DNA of 64,000 bases from Candidatus Chazhemtobacterium aquaticus (GCF_009936135.1 NZ_CP047901.1:695927-759926), one strand, 5' to 3'. Positions 9,072-61,136 are shown, counted from the first letter of the stretch. Translations and numbers: made by a program. The notes: generated from the sequence alone by a model not told the origin.

Positions 9072-10135
9072 TTAAAGAAGATTTAAAATGCCCAGTGACT
9101 ACCCTCATCTTAGATATTCATTTGATCGAAAGACTTGTCTGACATATCGTCGGGTAATGAAAACACTAGCCAGTTCACTTACCTTTGATACTTCTGATGT
9201 AGCTCGCTTCCGGCTCCATGTTCTGGAGCACTACTACAAGTATGGTCTTGTTCCAACCCTGGATGTCTTTGGGGTCAAGAAGAGTACTCTGTACGACTGG
9301 AAGAAGCGCTTTGAAGTCTCTGGCAAGAAACTCAACAGTCTGGTACCTGTCTCCACCAAACCAAAAGAACTCAGGAGAATGAACACAGACTGGAGACTAG
9401 TGGAGTTGATCAAGACCATGAGAAAAGAATATGGAAACGTTGGTGCCAATATACTAAAACCCTTTGTAGATGCTTTGGCGACAGACCTAAATATCCCCAC
9501 CATTAGCAAGACCACCATCACTAAGATCGTTAAGATACGAAGATTAACTTTTGAGACCAAAGTCAAGCTCAAAAAGAAGAGTAAACAACCACGGTTGCGA
9601 ACCAAAAGGTCTCCTAAAGTCACTTCTGCAGGATACGTTCAACTGGATTGTATTACCCTTTACATTAATCGCGAAAAACATTTGTTTGTGTGCTGTATTG
9701 ATGTCTTTACTAAGTTTGCTTTAGTGAGACGAGTTAAGTCCTTGTCGTCTCAATCAGCCAAACAAGTCTTGGTGACTTTTGAACAACTAACCAGTCACTC
9801 TGTCCACACTGTGCAAACAGACAATGGTAGTGAGTTTCTTGGAGTGTTTGACAGATATCTCGAAGACCAAGGTATCAAACACATCTTTACTTACCCCAGG
9901 TCTCCCAGAATCAATGGAGTGGTGGAGAGACTCAACAGAACTGTCCAAAAAGAGTTCATTAAAAGAAGTGATGAGATTTACTACAATACCAAAGCCTTTG
10001 ATGAAAAGCTGACAAAATGGTTACATTGGTACAATTACCAAAGACCACACTACGCACTTAAATATTTATCACCCGTTCAATTCATTAACACTCAGATTCC
10101 GAAAAGTGGGTGATCTATACACCACGATCCCCAAA
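9031..10135 (+). mobile_element. IS481-like insertion sequence (ends approximate)
   Basis: Single DDE transposase ORF; imperfect inverted ends around ..cacgtgtata.. (left) and ..tatacaccacg.. (right). Confidence 0.5.
9088..10113 (+). CDS. DDE transposase, rve integrase-core, IS481-like
   Basis: QLDCITLY...TDNGSEF...NGVVER catalytic triad context and HWYNYQRPHYAL..SP tail. Confidence 0.75.
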   Translation: MPSDYPHLRYSFDRKTCLTYRRVMKTLASSLTFDTSDVARFRLHVLEHYYKYGLVPTLDVFGVKKSTLYDWKKRFEVSGKKLNSLVPVSTKPKELRRMNTDWRLVELIKTMRKEYGNVGANILKPFVDALATDLNIPTISKTTITKIVKIRRLTFETKVKLKKKSKQPRLRTKRSPKVTSAGYVQLDCITLYINREKHLFVCCIDVFTKFALVRRVKSLSSQSAKQVLVTFEQLTSHSVHTVQTDNGSEFLGVFDRYLEDQGIKHIFTYPRSPRINGVVERLNRTVQKEFIKRSDEIYYNTKAFDEKLTKWLHWYNYQRPHYALKYLSPVQFINTQIPKSG

Positions 10136-33208: not shown

Positions 33209-34321
33209 TCAAAACCAACTCTGCAGTTTTTCCTGAATCCCCATCCACCCTCCAGTTATTCTCGCCACATCATTAAAGGTAATCACCACCATTAGTCCCA
33301 ACAAAAGCATCATTCCTGCCATGTTAATCCATCCCTCGACATCCTCTCTAAGCTTCCTTCCCCTAACCAACTCTATCCCTAAAAACAACAATCTTCCTCC
33401 ATCTAAACCAGGGAAAGGCAGTAAGTTAAGAATCATTAAATTAACTGACAAAATTCCCACAAACTGAAGCACCGCCATCCAACCAGCCTCTCTCGCCTGA
33501 TTACTAATCTGATAAATACCCACCGGCCCAGCAATGTCCTTAGGCAATCCCTGACCTGTTACCAACTGATACACCATTCCTCCCAGCCCCACCACTATCT
33601 CTCTTCCCCAAGCAAAAGCCTCCTGAAATCCCACCCAAACACCTCTAAACGGCATTTGATACCAAGGATACTTAGTTAGTTCCGTATCCGTCACCACCGC
33701 CCCCAGTGCCCCTTCATTGGGCCCTGGATCACTTCTTAGTGTTACTTTCTTTTCAACTACTCCCTCCCCCTCCTTTATCTTCAGCACTACCTCCTCACCC
33801 AAGTTTTCTCGTAACTTCTCAACAAACCCTTCACTCCCCTCGATTACCAGCTCCCCCTCATTGGTCACTAAAGAAGTCACAATCACCCCCTCCTCAAGAC
33901 CAGCGGTCTGAGCCGGACTTCCCTCACTTACTTCCAAAACCCTTACTCCATCAATCATCGCCGGCACCCCAAGAATCGAGTAAACAGTTCCAAACAATAC
34001 CACTGCCAATACCAAGTTCATTGTTACTCCCGCCACCAATACCACCGCTCTCTGCCAAACCGGCTTGCTCCAAAAAGCCCTCTCATCCTTAACCTCCTGA
34101 CCCTCACCGTTCTCTCCATAGATCTTCACAAAACCACCAATCGGCAACCAGTTAATCGTATACTCCGTCTCTCCTCTCTTAAACAGTCTCAACATTCTCG
34201 GCGGGAAACCGATTCCAAACTCCTCTACCTTGATCTTGAAAAACCTAGCTGCTGCAAAATGACCCCACTCGTGTACCAACACCACCACCGTCAAAATCAG
34301 TAAAAACAACAAAACCTGCAT
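33209..34321 (-). CDS. rseP: RIP site-2 metalloprotease RseP (M50)
   Basis: HEWGH zinc motif in TM1, PDZ domain, C-terminal TM region. Confidence 0.8.
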   Translation of the reverse strand: MQVLLFLLILTVVVLVHEWGHFAAARFFKIKVEEFGIGFPPRMLRLFKRGETEYTINWLPIGGFVKIYGENGEGQEVKDERAFWSKPVWQRAVVLVAGVTMNLVLAVVLFGTVYSILGVPAMIDGVRVLEVSEGSPAQTAGLEEGVIVTSLVTNEGELVIEGSEGFVEKLRENLGEEVVLKIKEGEGVVEKKVTLRSDPGPNEGALGAVVTDTELTKYPWYQMPFRGVWVGFQEAFAWGREIVVGLGGMVYQLVTGQGLPKDIAGPVGIYQISNQAREAGWMAVLQFVGILSVNLMILNLLPFPGLDGGRLLFLGIELVRGRKLREDVEGWINMAGMMLLLGLMVVITFNDVARITGGWMGIQEKLQSWF

Positions 34322-34345
34322 GCACTCTATCCTAGCACAATTTAC

Positions 34346-36007
34346 CTACATCCTCTCCGGTACTCCAATACCCAACAACCCTAGTCCTTGCTCCAAAACC
34401 TCAACCACTCCCTTGGCCAAAAACCACCGCAAAGGCTCTACCTCACCCTCATCAATCACCCGATGCTTGCTGTAGAAATCATTGAATGACTTAGCCAAAT
34501 CAAAAACATAATCGGCCAGCAAGTTGGGTGAATAATCTAGTGTCGCCTCCTTGACTACCTCTGGAAACTTATCAAGCAACTTGATAACCCTTACTTCCTC
34601 TATATCAAGATTCTTTCTTAAACTTATGTCTTGATTCACCTCACTTGAGGTATCAATTATCCGCCTGGCCCTCACTGTCGCATACTGCACATATGGTCCA
34701 GAATACCCATCCAGTCTTAAAGCCTCCTCCTGATCAAATCGGTACGCTGTTACAGGGCTATGCTTAAGATCAAAAAACTTCACCGCTCCAATACCCACCA
34801 TCTCAGCTGAGTGTTTGTTAATCTCACCCGCTCTCTTCACAATTTCATCAAGCCACTCTGCCATTCTCACTCCCGTTCCTTTCCTGGTACTCATCTTTTT
34901 TCCATCCTCTCCCAAAACCATCCCATGTGCCACATGAACCAGATTATCCCGCTTCACCCAGCCCAGTTTATCCACCGCCGCAAACACTTGTTTAAAATGT
35001 AAACTCTGCTCCCCACCAACTTCGTAAACATACAAATCCGATTTCAATCCCTGCGTCCTGCTTCTATATCTAACTGTCGCCAAATCTCTGGTAAAGTAGG
35101 TTGTCCCCCCGTCTGACTTAACCAGCATTCCAACTGGTAGTCCATCACCTAGATCCATCACCAGTGCTCCCTCACTCTCTCTTGCCAGTCCCTTCTCCTT
35201 TACCTCTCTGATTACCTCCTTCATCTCCTCTTCATAAAAACTCTCTCCATATGCATGCTCTATCTCTACCCCCAGTTGTTTGTATATCTTCTCAAAATCG
35301 GCCTTTGACTTATCTATCGCCACCTGCCAAATACTTCTTGCTCCCTCATCTCCTTGCTCGAGTCTTACAAACGCTTCTTTTGCCTTTTCTCGCAAACTTT
35401 CATCTTCCTTAGCTCTCTGGTTGTACTCCACATACAGTCTCTCCATCTCCTCTACCGTCATTTCACTCAAATCAAGACCTCCTTCCTCAACTGCAGCGAT
35501 AATCATGCCAAACTGAGTTCCCCAATCACCCAAATGATTATCTCCCACTGTCTTCCATCCAGAAAACTCAAACAAATTCCTGATACTTTGCCCAATAATG
35601 GTGCTTCTAAGATGCCCTACCGAGAAATTCTTGGCAATATTCGGACTACTGTACTCAATCAATACCTGCCTACCCTTTCCCCAATCACCACTACCCCAAT
35701 CCTTTCCTTGTTTAACTATTTCCTGTAATCTTTCTACCCACCATTCGGTTTTTATCGTAAAGTTAATAAAACCAGGACCAGCTATCTCTATTCCATCCAA
35801 ACTCTTCATCAAATCTGAATTCTTTAGTTCACTCACAATCTTTTCAGCTTTTTCTATCGGATTACCAGCACCAACAAGCGCTACATTACTGGCCCAATCT
35901 CCATGACCTTCCTCTCTTGGTCTCTCAACAACATAACTCTCTACTGCCAGCTTGAGCTTATGTAAAACCTCATCTATCGCCTTCCTTATCTCTCTCTCCA
36001 TGCCCAT
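34346..36007 (-). CDS. argS: arginyl-tRNA synthetase
   Basis: 553 aa; ...FSVGHLRSTIIG class I motif. Confidence 0.8.
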   Translation of the reverse strand: MGMEREIRKAIDEVLHKLKLAVESYVVERPREEGHGDWASNVALVGAGNPIEKAEKIVSELKNSDLMKSLDGIEIAGPGFINFTIKTEWWVERLQEIVKQGKDWGSGDWGKGRQVLIEYSSPNIAKNFSVGHLRSTIIGQSIRNLFEFSGWKTVGDNHLGDWGTQFGMIIAAVEEGGLDLSEMTVEEMERLYVEYNQRAKEDESLREKAKEAFVRLEQGDEGARSIWQVAIDKSKADFEKIYKQLGVEIEHAYGESFYEEEMKEVIREVKEKGLARESEGALVMDLGDGLPVGMLVKSDGGTTYFTRDLATVRYRSRTQGLKSDLYVYEVGGEQSLHFKQVFAAVDKLGWVKRDNLVHVAHGMVLGEDGKKMSTRKGTGVRMAEWLDEIVKRAGEINKHSAEMVGIGAVKFFDLKHSPVTAYRFDQEEALRLDGYSGPYVQYATVRARRIIDTSSEVNQDISLRKNLDIEEVRVIKLLDKFPEVVKEATLDYSPNLLADYVFDLAKSFNDFYSKHRVIDEGEVEPLRWFLAKGVVEVLEQGLGLLGIGVPERM

Positions 36008-36032
36008 ATTGTAACTTAAATCTACTCAAGCC

Positions 36033-36074
36033 AAAAAAAGAACCGCCAAGAGGTATGTTGCTGCCACTTGGCGG
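36033..36074 (-). terminator. rho-independent terminator
   Basis: ccgccaag/cttggcgg stem with T-run on the minus strand. Confidence 0.6.
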
Positions 36075-36264
36075 TCGGTACAACTTTCAGATACTTCCAC
36101 GCGCCAAAGGCATTATGTTTGCAATAGTTTGCTACGCGCCGACGCGTGAACATCGGGCGAGCCCGTATCCTAGACCTAGAAGGTCATCCTGCCCCCGCGT
36201 GTTTTCTCCGAAAGTCAAAAGAACCCCTACATTGTCTCTCCACATCAAATTACTGTCAAGCTAA

Positions 36265-36304
36265 CAAAAAAAGCCGCCGGATTTAAGTAAAAAATCTCGG
36301 CGGC
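36265..36304 (-). terminator. rho-independent terminator downstream of the minus-strand tRNA cluster
   Basis: gccgccgg/tcggcggc stem with T8 on the minus strand. Confidence 0.55.
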
Positions 36305-36489
36305 CTGCCAAGCGGTTCAAACTTGGCGCAGAATAGGATCACCCCCTTTCAGCTCGACGACAATGTGATTGTCAACGTCTCTTTCATTGGGCAATCCTCC
36401 TTTCTCTTCCCCCACCATACCACAAAAAAACCGGTAGCAAAATCACTTAAAGGGGGTGTCCCAAAAAGCCGCTACCGGTAACCAATACA

Positions 36490-36564
36490 TGCGCACAAGA
36501 GGATTCGAACCTCTAATTTCGACTCTCGTCATCTGTCGACGTTTTGCCGTTAAACTATGTGCGC
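36490..36564 (-). tRNA. atypical tRNA-like gene (perfect acceptor, D- and T-arms; anticodon stem TCGAC/GTCGA closes an 11-nt loop)
   Basis: GCGCACA-TA-GTTT-AACGGCA-AAAC-G-TCGAC-AGATGACGAGA-GTCGA-AATT-AGAGG-TTCGAAT-CCTCT-TGTGCGC-A. Confidence 0.5.
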
Positions 36565-36582
36565 CCAAACCACGTGGGGGGA

Positions 36583-36652
36583 GGGACTCGAACCCTCAAC
36601 CTTGGATTGACAGTCCATGCTCGTCCATTGAGCTTCCCCCAACATATAAAAG
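36583..36652 (-). tRNA. tRNA-Asp(GUC), with non-canonical acceptor and 8-9 positions
   Basis: D-arm GCTC/GAGC; anticodon loop CUGUCAA; T-arm GAGGG-TTCGAGT-CCCTC; discriminator G; 5 G versus 6 C at the acceptor homopolymers. Confidence 0.6.
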
Positions 36653-36660
36653 AACAAACA

Positions 36661-36767
36661 AGCGGGTAGGAGGACTCGAACCCCCAACCGTCGGTTTCCA
36701 TCAGAAAGCCTGCAGACCTCCCATGAAAACTGGAAAGCGCCGCTCTATCCAATTGAGCTATACCCGC
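36661..36767 (-). tRNA. 107-nt tRNA-like gene with an internal insertion or duplication in the anticodon arm (possibly Arg-UCU or Lys-UUU)
   Basis: Acceptor GCGGGTA/TACCCGC, D-arm GCTC-AATTGGATA-GAGC, T-arm GGGGG-TTCGAGT-CCTCC; 55 nt between D- and T-arms containing near-duplicate TTTTCATGGGA / TTTCTGATGGAAA. Confidence 0.5.
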
Positions 36768-36820
36768 ATGTCAACTTACGCGCCGATTATTATATTATAA
36801 GACTCTCTCTTGTCAAGCTC

Positions 36821-37378
36821 TTAAACCCTCATTACCTCCGCTTCCTTCTCCTGCGCCATCTGCTCTAACCGATCGTTATACTCTCCTGTCAATTTATCAA
36901 GTTCCTCATACAACCTCTTCACATCATCCTCACTCACTCCAGCCTCCTCCTCCAGTTTCTCAATCTCTTCCCTGCCCTCTTGCCTAACTCCTCGAAGCAT
37001 TACTCTACCACTCTCCAATTTCTGCCCCACTAGTTTTACAAAATCCCTTCTCCTCTCCTCAGTTAAAGGTGGTACTACAATCCTTATTACCTCTCCCGAC
37101 ACGTTAGGCATAAACCCTAAATTAGCCTCAATTATTCCCTTTTCAATATCCTTAATCACACTCTTATCCCACGGGCTGATCACGATCTGATTCGGATCAG
37201 GTGCTGATATAGAAGCTACCTCCATCAGTCTCATCCTCTGACCGCCATAAGCACTAATCTCTACACTCTCTACCATTTTTGGATTTGCTCCACCCACTCT
37301 GATCGTCGCCATGTCTTCTGCCACAACCGCCAACACCTTATCCATCTTTGAACCTATACCTTCAATCAGTTTATCCAT
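36821..37378 (-). CDS. frr: ribosome recycling factor
   Basis: 185 aa; typical RRF pattern. Confidence 0.8.
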   Translation of the reverse strand: MDKLIEGIGSKMDKVLAVVAEDMATIRVGGANPKMVESVEISAYGGQRMRLMEVASISAPDPNQIVISPWDKSVIKDIEKGIIEANLGFMPNVSGEVIRIVVPPLTEERRRDFVKLVGQKLESGRVMLRGVRQEGREEIEKLEEEAGVSEDDVKRLYEELDKLTGEYNDRLEQMAQEKEAEVMRV

Positions 37379-37398
37379 AACCTAAATATATTTAACCA

Positions 37399-59572: not shown

Positions 59573-60791
59573 ATATGACTAGATTAGCACACACCGCCTG
59601 CCATAACCACTTTATCGTCTCCATCCCTATCGTATTTATTTTTCCAACGACAAATATAAATATCCCATACAAATATATACACACCAATCACACATAATAC
59701 TCGTAATTAATACCAAAGTATCTATATTCAAGCAAATACAACTTGCCTATTTTCTATTATCAACCCAAATAACTACAATGATAAAAACCTAGAATAATAT
59801 ATTCACGATCCCTAAAAACTACCCAATCAAGCAATAAAATATTAATTATCTGCACGTCCCAAGCAGGGGAGAAAGCGTACATACCATCATCTAACATCCC
59901 TCATCCCCAAATAATCAATTATTAAATCATCATCAACATCAAACCGGCAGCAAGATCTCCCGATAAAATAGCCACAAAAACCTATAATATGAAAGTCTGC
60001 CACCTATTAAAATCACAAATACAGCTAAAAAAATAGCAAACAACCTATATAATTCCAACCGAAACTTGACAAACTATCAACCAAAGCCAGATCTAATCTG
60101 ATTAATCACACAAACAACATAACCATCACTCAATCATATATACAAACATTAACCAACAACTCAACTCAATCATAATCACAAAACTTTTTTAATTTACTGC
60201 CTTTCTACACGAGTAAACATAAGTTGTTCAAAATCCCGCCCAATATTCAAAAATCGAATTCTCATTCACTACAGCTATTCATCAACCAACTCACATCCGC
60301 GATTCAATAATCAAAAACCCAGGTCAACTCCCCTTATCTATCATCAAATCCCCAACTCCAGGCACAAAAACAGCAGATATTTGAGGCTGAAAACGCTTCT
60401 AGTGGCCCTAGAAACCTCTCTCATAAGAAACTCGAATATCAGGAAGGTCATTATTCCATACAAGATTGCAGTTTTCCCTCGTTTGTTATCTTCGTAACTC
60501 GAACCACCTTTATATTATGTCGCACAATGTTGTAAACCACTTATTGTCAGAAACAAATGTCCACTATCAACTAATACATCACCGACTCTTCATCAACTAT
60601 TGCCGTCTTAACCCAATCTAGGTTTACAATTAACACCTCCTTCCACCTACCCCAGCTCTACCAAGGCCCGTTATCTTAAGAAAATATTAATATACTCATT
60701 TATTTAATAATCACCTCTTAATCAAGACAAACATCACGGAGCCTACATCCACTAACTAGAGAAAAACCTCACTCTCTGCTAAAATACCAAC
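59573..60791. other. 1.2-kb ORF-free, A+C-rich, low-complexity noncoding region
   Basis: No ORF of 60 aa or more in any frame; strong C>G and A>T skew; CA-rich short repeats. Confidence 0.8.
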
Positions 60792-60965
60792 ATGGCCAAA
60801 AAAGGACCCCGACAACTAGCAGGTTTGCGATGTTCTGAATGCAAGAATTTCAACTACATCTCTGAACGCAACCGCACCAACACTCCAGACAAAATCGAAC
60901 TCAAGAAGTACTGTCCTCGTTGTCGTAAACACACCACCCACAAAGAAGTCTCCAAACTAAAGTAA
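60792..60965 (+). CDS. rpmG: 50S ribosomal protein L33 (57 aa; missed by the ORF track)
   Basis: [52 protein letters not shown]; followed by tRNA-Trp as in many bacteria. Confidence 0.85.
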
Positions 60966-61008
60966 ATTCATCCTCAAGACATTTTCACCCTTGTTAAGAT
61001 ACAATATA

Positions 61009-61079
61009 GACCTTAGTTAGGCCCGTAGTGAAACGGCATCACAACTCTCTCCAAAAGAGTTATTCCAGGTTCGAATCCT
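61009..61079 (+). tRNA. tRNA-Trp(CCA)
   Basis: Canonical cloverleaf; anticodon loop CUCCAAA. Confidence 0.85.
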
Positions 61080-61136
61080 GGCGGGCCTGCCCCAATACCT
61101 CTTCCCGAACTAATCTATCCCAAAACACCTCAAAAC

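What the first reader, a model, noticed from the sequence alone, without database searches (positions are those of the whole stretch)
36661..36767. A 107-nt tRNA gene with a roughly 23-nt internal insertion or duplication in the anticodon arm
The acceptor stem, D-arm and T-arm are perfect, but 55 nt separate the D-arm from the T-arm. A 6-bp TTTCCA/TGGAAA stem encloses 30 nt containing the near-duplicate strings TTTTCATGGGA and TTTCTGATGGAAA. Depending on the fold, the anticodon is UUU (with an unusual C37) or UCU (with a canonical U33 and R37 after removing a 23-nt element). Short non-group-I insertions in bacterial tRNA genes are not something I recognise as described.
Basis: seen in the sequence. 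Interest (0 to 1): 0.55.

Follow-up and report, generated by a model that had tools for sequence, protein, structure and literature searches.

The report
Hairpin-interrupted tRNA gene in a CPR bacterium
A promoter-driven tRNA gene in a tiny-genome (Patescibacteria) bacterium carries a ~35-base hairpin at or next to the spot where archaeal and eukaryotic tRNA introns sit, and selection keeps its shape, so it is a candidate for a short, non-self-splicing tRNA intron in Bacteria, although nobody has yet tested whether it is cut out.

Summary
The feature is real. It is a 107-nt tRNA-shaped gene (X107) on the minus strand (36767..36661), 21 nt downstream of a perfect sigma-70 promoter, in a strain of 'Candidatus Chazhemtobacterium aquaticus' (Microgenomates). 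Acceptor, D and T arms are canonical, and 56 nt lie between the D and T stems. The excess is about 33-35 nt, not 23. It is a stable hairpin (z about -4) whose 3' end (UGGAAA) pairs with the anticodon-loop 5' half (UUUCCA). It is not a group I intron, has no archaeal bulge-helix-bulge motif, and is not a significant duplication. All 15 independent assemblies of this species cluster carry it, as six alleles. It evolves at about the synonymous rate, yet the substitutions preserve base pairs far more often than chance (0/5000 simulations), for both the tRNA body and the insert. One strain has a second, paralogous insert-bearing tRNA with a different 'anticodon' and a matching complement. Decay and artefact are therefore rejected. 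The best reading is an intron-like intervening sequence at or beside position 37/38 of an accessory tRNA (Gly-like identity set, UCC), removed by an unknown pathway (confidence 0.45). The main rival is that it works unspliced as a tRNA-shaped RNA with a masked anticodon (0.3). Splicing is untested.

The parts
36789..36816 (-). Sigma-70 promoter TTGACA-16 nt-TATAAT (12/12 consensus) driving the X107-Asp-Val* tRNA cluster
   Evidence: The hexamers are conserved in all strains, and also in L182, which lacks X107.
36661..36767 (-). X107: the 107-nt tRNA-shaped gene with an interrupted anticodon arm
   Evidence: Rfam RF00005 at 41.7 bits; ARAGORN -i; present in 15/15 assemblies as six alleles.
36731..36767 (-). 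5' exon-like part: acceptor 5' strand, D arm, anticodon-stem 5' strand GGCGC and loop half UUUCCA
   Evidence: Universal tRNA nucleotides, G1/C2/G3 and UUUCCA are invariant in six alleles.
36696..36730 (-). About 35-nt intervening sequence GUUUUCAUGGGAGGUCUGCAGGCUUUCUGAUGGAA. The boundaries are ambiguous by 1-2 nt because of flanking A residues.
   Evidence: It is not repeated elsewhere in the window.
36661..36695 (-). 3' exon-like part: A38, anticodon-stem 3' strand CCGAC, 4-nt variable loop, T arm, acceptor 3' strand, discriminator U
36731..36736 (-). UUUCCA: anticodon-loop 5' half (U32 U33 U34 C35 C36 A37 in the Gly register) and 5' strand of the central helix
   Evidence: Invariant in all alleles. 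Paired with UGGAAA in the minimum-free-energy fold of 4/6 alleles.
36695..36700 (-). UGGAAA: 3' end of the insert plus A38, the 3' strand of the central helix that masks the anticodon
   Evidence: Invariant. The helix is lengthened to 7-8 bp by independent changes in the L205 and L206/L213 alleles.
36727..36730 (-). GUUU: 4-nt bulge on the 5' strand at the putative 5' exon-insert junction
   Evidence: Fold (i). The equivalent bulge in the paralogue tRNA2 is the 4-nt UAAA.
36704..36721 (-). Apical hairpin GGAGGUC-UGCA-GGCUUUC with the invariant palindromic apex CUGCAG
   Evidence: Pair 48/63 changes on both sides (G.U to U.G). The core UCUGCAGGC is shared with tRNA2 in L213.
36573..36642 (-). 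tRNA-Asp(GUC), second gene of the cluster, with a U1.C72 mismatch
   Evidence: Absent in L157/L191 and replaced by tRNA2 in L213.
36490..36564 (-). Val*: tRNA-like gene with an 11-nt anticodon loop, third gene of the cluster
   Evidence: Nearly invariant across strains.
36425..36482 (-). Hairpin ACCGGUAGC...GCUACCGG followed by a U run; likely terminator of the tRNA cluster
   Evidence: sequence and structure only.

Best explanation
X107 is a functional accessory tRNA gene of 'Ca. Chazhemtobacterium aquaticus'. It carries the glycine identity set and a UUUCCA anticodon-loop half (anticodon UCC). Its anticodon loop is interrupted at or immediately next to the canonical 37/38 site by an intron-like intervening sequence of about 33-35 nt.

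In the primary transcript the 3' end of the insert pairs with the anticodon-loop 5' half. This gives an extended arm made of five parts: an outer stem, a small irregularity on the 3' strand, a 6-7 bp 'anticodon-insert' helix, a 4-nt bulge on the 5' strand, and an apical hairpin capped by CUGCAG. This has the topology of a bulge-helix-bulge motif but not the archaeal 3-4-3 dimensions.

Shown here: the gene is real, lies directly behind a perfect consensus promoter (transcription itself was not measured), is present in all sampled strains, and both the tRNA body and the insert are under selection for structure.

Inferred: to decode, the insert must be excised near the two irregularities and the halves ligated, by an enzyme pair not yet identified. 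The pathway is neither self-splicing group I nor a canonical EndA-type endonuclease.
For: (1) Reality. Rfam tRNA hit above the gathering score, a 12/12 consensus promoter 21 nt upstream, and presence in 15 independent assemblies.

(2) Selection. There are six alleles with 24 variable columns out of 108, yet 95-97% of cells stay paired. Acceptor pair 6-67 runs U-A, then U.G, then C-G. Hairpin pair 48/63 changes on both sides. Placing the same substitutions at random would leave 23.2 broken pairs against 9 observed (0/5000). For single alleles, L205 gives p=0.003 and L206 p=0.002. Taken separately, tRNA-body pairs give 0/5000 and insert-involving pairs 48/5000.

(3) tRNA-like constraint pattern. 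The universal nucleotides (U8, A14, G18G19, T loop), G1-C72/C2-G71/G3-C70/U73 and the whole UUUCCA segment are invariant. Positions that normally vary in tRNAs are the ones that vary.

(4) Anticodon-insert pairing, a hallmark of protein-spliced pre-tRNAs. It is the minimum-free-energy fold in 4/6 alleles and was strengthened independently twice: C75 to G in L205, and C31 to U plus an extra A in L206/L213.

(5) A paralogue. tRNA2 (L213:2253-2355) has a different acceptor stem and loop (UUCAGGA), a matching complement (UCCUGGA, 7 bp; 172/20000 shuffles reach this), the same apex UCUGCAGGC, the same 4-nt 5' bulge and a perfect 5-bp anticodon stem.

(6) Similar architecture elsewhere. Other tRNA-Gly genes with clean exons show it: L171 (contig of unknown origin) and L156 (phage-like contig). 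'Enigmatic' short tRNA introns are reported in Lak megaphages (PMC6784885).
Against: - No splicing machinery or mechanism is known for such an element in Bacteria.
- No archaeal-type BHB motif is present, and there is no ribozyme or Rfam match.
- After any simple excision the anticodon stem is imperfect. It has 3/5 pairs in the window allele (G.A and C.C mismatches) and 4/5 in the commonest allele.
- The Gly(UCC) reading requires that nucleotide 26 be absent. Standard numbering gives CCA, which conflicts with U73 and with the canonical tRNA-Trp at 61018-61092.
- The gene evolves about as fast as synonymous sites (0-11% against 10.6-14.5%), while the neighbouring Asp and Val* genes are nearly invariant. 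That is unusual for a decoding tRNA.
- It is absent at the syntenic site in relatives with 90%, 79%, 74% and 71% RRF identity.
- The published genome of the species reports 51 tRNA genes that already cover all codons (PMC7143001), so X107 is probably redundant.
- The neighbouring Val* has an 11-nt anticodon loop that no excision can make canonical.
Confidence: 0.45

Rival explanations
1. X107 acts unspliced, as a tRNA-shaped RNA with a long rod-like anticodon arm and a masked or switchable anticodon. Possible roles are an aminoacylatable but non-decoding tRNA (a donor for a non-ribosomal reaction), or a decoy or regulator. The insert would then be part of the mature RNA.
For: - Selection acts on the structure of the insert itself (48/5000), and the apex CUGCAG is invariant.
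- The anti-S segment UGGAAA can pair either with the anticodon half UUUCCA or with the near-copy UUUUCA just downstream. These are two mutually exclusive folds of similar energy. tRNA2 shows the same arrangement (CAGGA / AAGGA against UCCUG).
- Evolution is fast, as seen in conflict-related or regulatory RNAs.
- The anticodon stem is never perfect after excision.
- The neighbour Val* keeps its tRNA shape, with a compensatory G-C to A-U change in L182, while its anticodon loop is 11 nt in this clade and 8 nt in L182.
- L189, a relative with 71% RRF identity, has a 104-nt tRNA-like gene with a long arm and non-canonical D and T loops.
- The genome is reported to decode all codons with its 51 annotated tRNAs.
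Against: - I know of no precedent for an anticodon-masked tRNA-like RNA with the acceptor stem at the termini.
- The canonical anticodon-loop signature (Y32, U33, NNN, R37) and the Gly identity set are invariant at the sequence level, rather than covarying as the other stems do. That is what decoding or aminoacylation predicts, not a purely structural rod.
- The paralogue has a different loop and a co-adapted complement, as expected for introns in tRNAs of different specificity.
Confidence: 0.3
2. X107 is a recently disrupted, decaying tRNA pseudogene, inactivated by a hairpin insertion or palindrome expansion, sitting in a dispensable tRNA cluster.
For: - Near-neutral overall rate: 10 variable sites in 107 nt against 8 in 62 nt in the upstream spacer, and 0 in the 75-nt Val*. 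Divergence is 0-11% against 10.6-14.5% at 4-fold sites.
- Mismatches in the anticodon stem, and an A.C mismatch in the T stem of L191.
- The cluster is fluid: Asp is lost in L157/L191, and X107 is absent in L182.
- The genome is reported to have a complete tRNA set.
Against: - The substitutions preserve structure far beyond chance (0/5000 overall; p=0.002-0.003 for two largely independent alleles).
- There are compensatory double changes.
- Mismatches have been repaired independently in two lineages.
- The gene is retained in 15/15 strains behind a perfect promoter.
- A second, intact-looking paralogue exists.
Confidence: 0.07
3. The insert belongs to a known intron class: either a self-splicing group I/II intron, or an archaeal-type BHB intron cut by an EndA homologue (for example acquired from archaea).
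For: The position is at or beside 37/38, the site used by both of these classes (PMC4033280).
Against: - At 35 nt it is far below the roughly 100-nt catalytic core of group I introns, and no Rfam family other than tRNA matches.
- A programmatic search finds no 3-nt/4-bp/3-nt BHB at the junctions. The same search does recover the motif in an archaeal control (L007).
- The 34 window ORFs scanned against Pfam include no splicing endonuclease or RNA ligase.
Confidence: 0.03
4. The feature is an assembly or sequencing artefact, or the reader mis-transcribed the sequence.
For: None beyond the prior expectation.
Against: The same gene is recovered from 15 assemblies drawn from Logan, ENA and JGI samples, with allelic variation.
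Confidence: 0.01

Closest known systems
Protein-spliced tRNA introns of Archaea and Eukarya (bulge-helix-bulge substrates of EndA/TSEN, ligated by RtcB or Trl1)
   Same: A short insert (tens of nt) at or next to 37/38. The 3' part of the insert pairs with the anticodon. An irregularity on the 3' strand lies below the central helix and a bulge on the 5' strand lies above it, which is the same polarity as BHB. Homologous inserts occur in two different tRNA genes.
   Different: The host is a bacterium. The central helix is 6-7 bp, not 4. The bulges are 4 nt on the 5' strand and 1-5 nt on the 3' strand, not 3 and 3. No strict or relaxed BHB was found. No endonuclease is known, and splicing has not been shown.
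Self-splicing group I (and group II) introns in bacterial tRNA genes (cyanobacterial tRNA-Leu(UAA) and tRNA-fMet, proteobacterial tRNA-Ile and tRNA-Arg)
   Same: These are the only described interruptions of bacterial tRNA genes, and they sit at the same place in the anticodon loop (PMC4033280, PMC8450103).
   Different: They are 200 nt or more, with a catalytic core and Rfam models. X107's insert is 35 nt with one hairpin and no Rfam match.
'Enigmatic' short introns predicted in Lak megaphage tRNAs (Devoto et al. 2019, PMC6784885)
   Same: Short, uncharacterised insertions in tRNA genes of the bacterial/phage world that bacterial-mode tRNA finders miss. Their sequences are conserved across samples.
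   Different: They are phage-borne and have a different sequence. No structural model or evidence of selection was reported. X107 is chromosomal, lying between frr and argS in a CPR bacterium. No viral contig carries the X107 insert.
Transposed tRNA introns of Thermoproteales (Fujishima et al. 2010, cited in PMC10714607)
   Same: Related intron sequences are found in tRNA genes of different specificity. X107 and tRNA2 share the core UCUGCAGGC and their 3' flank.
   Different: Those are archaeal, BHB-dependent and present in many copies. Only two paralogues are seen here.
Intervening sequences (IVS) of bacterial 23S/16S rRNA excised by RNase III without religation
   Same: A stem-loop extension is inserted into a conserved stable-RNA gene of a bacterium. 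CPR bacteria are rich in rRNA insertions (PMC7143001).
   Different: IVS removal leaves fragmented rRNA that still functions. A tRNA left cut in its anticodon loop would not decode. The RNase III cut geometry (2-nt stagger) does not fit junctions 6-7 bp apart.

Membership tests
tRNA (Rfam RF00005) | Cloverleaf with acceptor, D and T arms that scores above the family gathering threshold | tested here: met
   41.7 bits against a gathering score of 29, spanning model positions 1-71. U8, A14, G18G19, the T loop UUCGAGU and the 7-bp acceptor stem are all present and invariant.
tRNA (Rfam RF00005) | 5-bp anticodon stem closing a 7-nt loop (U33, R37) in the gene as encoded | tested here: not met
   56 nt lie between the D and T stems. 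The covariance model places a 44-nt insertion there, and default ARAGORN does not call the gene.
tRNA-Gly (bacterial identity set) | G1-C72, C2-G71, G3-C70, U73, C35, C36 | tested here: inconclusive
   The acceptor-stem and discriminator elements are present and invariant. C35 and C36 are present only in the register that lacks nucleotide 26. Standard numbering gives C34 C35 A36 (CCA). Aminoacylation cannot be tested here.
Group I intron in a bacterial tRNA gene | Catalytic core of about 100 nt or more with P1-P9 helices, and an Rfam Intron_gpI match | tested here: not met
   The insert is about 35 nt. cmscan at E<=1 over 36400-36900 returns no ribozyme or intron family: three tRNA matches plus two weak sub-threshold cis-regulatory matches that lie over the neighbouring tRNA genes, not over X107. 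The size requirement is taken from PMC4033280.
Archaeal/eukaryal protein-spliced tRNA intron | Insert located in the anticodon loop at 37/38 | tested here: inconclusive
   The insert starts right after UUUCCA (A37 in the Gly register) or after G37 in standard numbering. The boundaries are ambiguous by 1-2 nt and the register is uncertain.
Archaeal/eukaryal protein-spliced tRNA intron | Bulge-helix-bulge motif (3-nt bulge, 4-bp helix, 3-nt bulge) or a relaxed variant at the splice sites | tested here: not met
   The programmatic search finds none at the junctions in the two alleles tested (window and L191). An archaeal control (L007) is recovered. The observed motif is a 4-nt bulge, a 6-7 bp helix and a 1-5-nt irregularity.
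Archaeal/eukaryal protein-spliced tRNA intron | Pairing between the anticodon and the intron | tested here: met
   UUUCCA/UGGAAA forms 6 Watson-Crick pairs, or 7 in L206/L213. In the paralogue, UUCAGGA/UCCUGGA forms 7 pairs. Chance levels are 14% (window allele), 4.8% (L206) and 0.9% (tRNA2).
Archaeal/eukaryal protein-spliced tRNA intron | Excision and ligation to give a mature tRNA; endonuclease and ligase encoded in the genome | not testable with these tools
   No transcript data are available. Only a 64-kb window is held, and no EndA or RtcB domain occurs in the 34 window ORFs scanned.
tRNA pseudogene | Substitutions accumulate without regard to base pairing or conserved nucleotides | tested here: not met
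   9 broken pairs are observed against 23.2 expected (0/5000). There are compensatory changes at pairs 6-67 and 48/63, and the universal nucleotides are invariant.

The most novel reading that the evidence does not exclude
A lineage of Patescibacteria (Microgenomates) has true, enzyme-spliced tRNA introns that are short, structured and not self-splicing. They are defined by a new 'long' bulge-helix-bulge-like motif (a 4-nt 5' bulge, a 7-bp anticodon-intron helix and a 3' bulge). They have spread between paralogous tRNA genes, which implies an undiscovered bacterial tRNA splicing endonuclease and ligase pathway. Related elements may exist in phage tRNA genes.
Probability: 0.33. Interest if true: 0.9.

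Novelty: new variant of a known kind. Interest (0 to 1): 0.62.

Why it matters
Textbooks and reviews hold that bacterial tRNA genes are uniform and are interrupted only by self-splicing group I/II introns. Protein-dependent tRNA splicing is treated as a trait of archaea and eukaryotes.

A short, selected, anticodon-pairing insert in chromosomal tRNA genes of a CPR bacterium would have one of two meanings. It could extend enzyme-dependent tRNA splicing to Bacteria, with a new recognition motif and unknown enzymes. Or it could reveal a new class of tRNA-shaped RNAs with a masked anticodon.

There is also a practical point. Standard bacterial annotation misses such genes entirely. tRNA complements of CPR bacteria and phages, and inferences drawn from 'missing' tRNAs, may therefore be biased.

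Tried and rejected
- **Direct duplication as the origin of the insert.** The local alignment score is reached by 232/1000 shuffles.
- **UCU (Arg) and UUU readings.** No fold supports either, and the UCU arm would sit on an extra helix.
- **Archaeal BHB.** None is present.
- **Rfam families other than tRNA.** None matches X107 itself, even at E<=1; the only other matches in 36400-36900 are two weak, sub-threshold cis-regulatory hits lying over the neighbouring tRNA genes.
- **A mobile mini-element with other copies.** No other copy exists in the window, in viral contigs or in the loci fetched, apart from tRNA2.
- **An intact paralogue in the window.** There is none.
- **Rate test for purifying selection.** This was inconclusive, because divergence is mosaic through recombination. 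For example, a 600-nt stretch is identical to L001, flanked by regions with 3-9% divergence. It was replaced by a test of whether substitutions preserve pairing.
- **Synteny search for deep orthologues.** X107 is absent next to frr/argS in L182, L187, L188, L189, L203 and L204, so the family could not be traced beyond the species cluster, except for a dissimilar long-arm tRNA-like gene in L189.
- **A conserved mini-ORF (AUG...UGA) inside the insert.** It is destroyed by the 1-nt deletion in other alleles.
- **Literature searches for CPR or bacterial short tRNA introns.** They found only the Lak phage report.
- **Enzyme search.** I could not test for a second tRNA-Gly(UCC), nor for RtcB or EndA in the whole genome.

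Full report
**What is there.** On the minus strand, 36767..36661 reads GCGGGUA-UA-GCUC-AAUUGGAUA-GAGC-[56 nt]-GGGGG-UUCGAGU-CCUCC-UACCCGC-U. Rfam's tRNA model matches exactly these coordinates at 41.7 bits (gathering score 29) and places a 44-nt insertion in the anticodon arm. Default bacterial ARAGORN does not call the gene. With introns allowed it calls a 72-nt tRNA plus a 35-nt intron, under an implausible Ser(GGA) label.

The gene, which I call X107, lies 21 nt downstream of a 12/12 consensus sigma-70 promoter at 36816..36789. It is the first gene of a cluster, X107, then tRNA-Asp(GUC), then a 'Val*' tRNA with an 11-nt anticodon loop, between frr and argS.

**The host.** The host is bacterial: the window encodes RRF, a short EF-Ts, S2, DnaX, TopA and ThyX. 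The window's RRF is identical to QHO63745.1 of 'Candidatus Chazhemtobacterium aquaticus', a member of the Microgenomates (Patescibacteria) with an 801,504-bp genome (PMC7143001).

**Checking the observation.** The arms, the length, and the 6-bp TTTCCA/TGGAAA stem enclosing 30 nt are all correct. The D-to-T distance is 56 nt, so the excess over a normal tRNA is 33-35 nt, not about 23. The direct 'near-duplicate' strings are no better than chance (232/1000 shuffles). The significant signal is a G.U-rich hairpin, GUUUUCAUGGGAGGUC-UGCA-GGCUUUCU(G)AUGGAAAC, with z -3.7 to -4.5 and 0/200 shuffles as stable.

There are two alternative folds of similar energy.
- **Fold (i):** the anticodon stem is extended by UUUCCA:UGGAAA, followed by a 4-nt GUUU bulge and an apical hairpin.
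- **Fold (ii):** a 16-bp hairpin starts directly 3' of UUUCCA, which leaves the anticodon segment single-stranded.

**Which tRNA it resembles.** G1-C72, C2-G71, G3-C70 and U73 form the bacterial glycine identity set (my own knowledge). Reading GGCGC-UUUCCA|insert|A-CCGAC gives the loop UUUCCAA, a typical Gly(UCC) loop. That register has no nucleotide 26, and it leaves G.A and C.C mismatches in the stem. Standard numbering gives CCA, but a canonical tRNA-Trp with G73 sits at 61018-61092.

**What it is not.**
- It is not a group I intron. At 35 nt it is far too small, and no ribozyme or intron family in Rfam matches the region: besides the tRNA hits, the E<=1 scan lists only two weak, sub-threshold cis-regulatory matches over the neighbouring tRNA genes (size criterion from PMC4033280).
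- It has no archaeal bulge-helix-bulge motif. My search recovers the motif in an archaeal control but not at these junctions.
- It is not a repeated mobile element.
- It is not an artefact. I recovered it from 15 assemblies in Logan, ENA and JGI data.

**Comparative evidence.** X107 is absent from the frr-argS region in relatives with 90% RRF identity or less (L182, L187, L188, L189, L203, L204). It is present in all 15 assemblies of the species-level cluster, as six alleles.

These strains differ from the window by 10.6-14.5% at 4-fold sites, and X107 differs by 0-11%. Among the first five strains it has 10 variable sites in 107 nt. The upstream spacer has 8 in 62 nt, and Asp and Val* have none. 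Taken alone, this looked like a decaying gene.

The pattern of the changes says otherwise.
- Of 108 alignment columns, 24 vary, yet 95-97% of pair cells stay paired.
- Acceptor pair 6-67 runs U-A, then U.G, then C-G. Hairpin pair 48/63 flips from G.U to U.G.
- The G28.A mismatch becomes U-A in three alleles.
- The C31.C75 mismatch is resolved in two independent ways, both of which lengthen helix (i) to 7-8 bp: C75 to G in L205, and C31 to U plus an extra A in L206/L213.

I then simulated the same number of transitions and transversions, placed at random on the window allele.
- The total is 23.2 broken pairs expected against 9 observed (0/5000).
- Two largely independent alleles give p=0.003 and p=0.002.
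- The effect holds separately for tRNA-body pairs (0/5000) and for insert-involving pairs (48/5000).

The universal tRNA nucleotides, the Gly acceptor/discriminator set, UUUCCAGUUUU, UGG-AAA and the apex GGUCUGCAG are all invariant. The pseudogene explanation is therefore rejected.

**A paralogue.** In strain L213 the Asp gene is replaced by a second insert-bearing tRNA, tRNA2, at L213:2253-2355. Its sequence is GUGAGCG...AUCGGU-UUCAGGA-UAAAGGAUCUGCAGGCCUCCUGGAGAAAA-GCCGA-CGGUU...CGCUCAC-A.

It shares the apex UCUGCAGGC and the 3' flank CCGACGGUUG with X107. It differs in its acceptor stem and in its loop sequence, and the 3' part of its insert is complementary to that different loop (UUCAGGA:UCCUGGA, 7 bp; 172/20000 shuffles reach this).

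Its minimum-free-energy fold has a 5-bp outer stem, a 5-nt 3' bulge, a 7-bp central helix, a 4-nt 5' bulge and an apical hairpin. This is the same topology as X107 fold (i). Fold (i) is the minimum-free-energy fold in 4 of the 6 X107 alleles.

The shared design is therefore BHB-like in polarity: a 3'-strand irregularity below the helix and a 5'-strand bulge above a helix that contains the anticodon. Its dimensions, however, do not fit the archaeal endonuclease.

**How it most likely works.** The following is shown: a real tRNA-shaped gene sits directly behind a consensus promoter, and both its tRNA body and its insert are under selection for structure. The anticodon-loop half is conserved at the sequence level and is paired with the 3' end of the insert.

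The rest is inferred. I favour the view that the insert is an intron-like intervening sequence that must be removed near the two irregularities for the tRNA to decode, by an unknown nuclease and ligase (confidence 0.45). The anticodon-insert helix, the placement at or beside 37/38, the canonical U33/R37 context, the invariant identity elements, and a paralogue with a co-adapted complement are all what intron-containing tRNAs of different specificity would show.

Several things count against it.
- No bacterial machinery for this is known.
- The anticodon stem is imperfect after excision.
- There is a register problem (no nucleotide 26 in the Gly reading).
- The gene evolves unusually fast.
- It is probably redundant. 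The published genome reports 51 tRNA genes covering all codons, and Asp in the same cluster is dispensable.

**The main rival (0.3).** The RNA may function unspliced, as a tRNA-shaped molecule with a masked or switchable anticodon. The anti-S segment can pair either with the anticodon half (UUUCCA) or with a near-copy just downstream (UUUUCA). In tRNA2 the equivalents are CAGGA and AAGGA.

Two further observations support a local family of non-canonical tRNA-like RNAs. The neighbour Val* keeps its tRNA shape while its loop length changes (11 nt here, 8 nt in L182). L189 also carries a long-arm tRNA-like gene.

**Context and novelty.** Reviews state that bacterial tRNA genes are uniform and are interrupted only by group I/II introns (PMC4033280; PMC8450103). 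The only related report I found is of 'enigmatic' introns in Lak megaphage tRNAs (PMC6784885). Searches for CPR or bacterial short tRNA introns found nothing else.

My pattern scans show that X107 is not entirely alone. tRNA-Gly genes with clean exons and 26-28-nt anticodon-pairing hairpins occur in a phage-like contig (L156) and in a short metagenome contig (L171). A tRNA-Arg(UCG) with a 40-nt hairpin occurs in an acidobacterial tRNA array (L077). Whole families of 114-123-nt tRNA-like genes occur in gut phages and in Bacteroidota.

I therefore rate X107 as a new variant of a known kind (interrupted tRNA genes) with substantial upside. If it is spliced, it implies a bacterial tRNA splicing pathway with a new recognition motif.

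**Limits.** I hold only six alleles and one paralogue from a single species cluster. I have no transcript data and no access to the rest of the genome. Isotype assignment and splice boundaries remain uncertain. The covariation controls built into the pair counter are only marginal (21-57 of 500). The stronger statement rests on my own substitution-placement simulation.

Noticed in passing
window 36490-36564 (-): 'Val*' is a tRNA with a normal acceptor stem, D arm and T arm but an 11-nt anticodon loop (AGAUGACGAGA). It is identical in almost all strains. The orthologue in L182 (1597-1670) has an 8-nt loop (CACGAAGG) and a compensatory G-C to A-U change in the anticodon stem. No excision gives a canonical loop.
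   Followed up: partly
window 36573-36642 (-); L182:1518-1588; L157; L191; L213: The tRNA-Asp(GUC) has a U1.C72 mismatch here. The L182 orthologue has G1-C72 but an AUC anticodon. The gene is deleted in L157/L191 and replaced by the insert-bearing tRNA2 in L213. The cluster is rearranging quickly.
   Followed up: partly
window ~36010-36430 (-): Two conserved non-coding elements lie between the tRNA cluster and argS. The first runs GGGGAAGAGAAAGGAGGAUUGCCC...GAAAGGGGGUGAUCC...terminator. The second follows a TTGACA promoter (36259-36231) and ends in a terminator just before the argS start. They are 98.5% identical among strains, and the first is recognisable in L182, L187 and L188. There is no Rfam match, not even T-box, at E<=5. 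They may be novel leaders or small RNAs.
   Followed up: partly
L213:2253-2355: This is a second insert-bearing tRNA-like gene (tRNA2). It shares the apex UCUGCAGGC with X107 but has the acceptor GUGAGCG/A73 and the loop UUCAGGA (anticodon CAG in a class I body).
   Followed up: yes
L189:1429-1532 and 1550-1622: A relative with 71% RRF identity has a 104-nt tRNA-like gene with a 6-bp 'anticodon' stem enclosing 33 nt, no GG in the D loop, and the T loop UGCAAGU. It is followed by a tRNA with a 6-nt anticodon loop.
   Followed up: no
L124, L146, L153, L192-L202 (human-gut metagenome and IMG/VR contigs of 77-141 kb): These contigs hold arrays of 114-123-nt tRNA-like genes of several acceptor types. 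In each, the anticodon loop is replaced by a module of about 45 nt with a conserved 'hairpin + ACAGCAA' motif. Rfam sees them only as tRNA. They appear to be phage-borne.
   Followed up: partly
L012, L018, L030, L032, L046, L052, L058, L060, L073, L089, L112, L120 (Bacteroidota genomes): This is another recurrent family of tRNA-like genes of about 117-122 nt, with the conserved insert motif ...GGTCAA...TTTACTTC..., often in tandem pairs.
   Followed up: no
L171:655-753; L156:7108-7208; L077:3355-3467: These tRNA genes have perfect exons and 26-40-nt hairpin inserts at 37/38: Gly(CCC), Gly(GCC) and Arg(UCG). In the two Gly genes U32 and U33 pair with AA, and C35 and C36 pair with GG of the insert, leaving N34 bulged. 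L156 is a phage-like contig with a tRNA array, and L077 is an acidobacterial tRNA array.
   Followed up: partly
L008:6349-6441, L013, L069, L145: These bacterial tRNAs have the anticodon UAU and a long hairpin variable arm (ARAGORN: tRNA-Ile(tat), 93 nt). That is an unusual class II-like Ile tRNA.
   Followed up: no
window 34100-37390 compared with L001, L157, L190, L191, L205-L214: Strain divergence is strongly mosaic. Stretches of 200-600 nt are identical, next to stretches with 5-10% divergence, and X107 alleles are unlinked to frr alleles. This indicates frequent homologous recombination in this CPR population.
   Followed up: partly
window 9088-10113 (+): An ORF with an rve-family integrase core domain (transposase-like) occurs here, although the published genome of the species was described as lacking mobile elements (PMC7143001).
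   Followed up: no
window ~59600-61000: A stretch of about 1.4 kb upstream of tRNA-Trp has no ORF of 110 aa or more and no Rfam gathering-level match.
   Followed up: no
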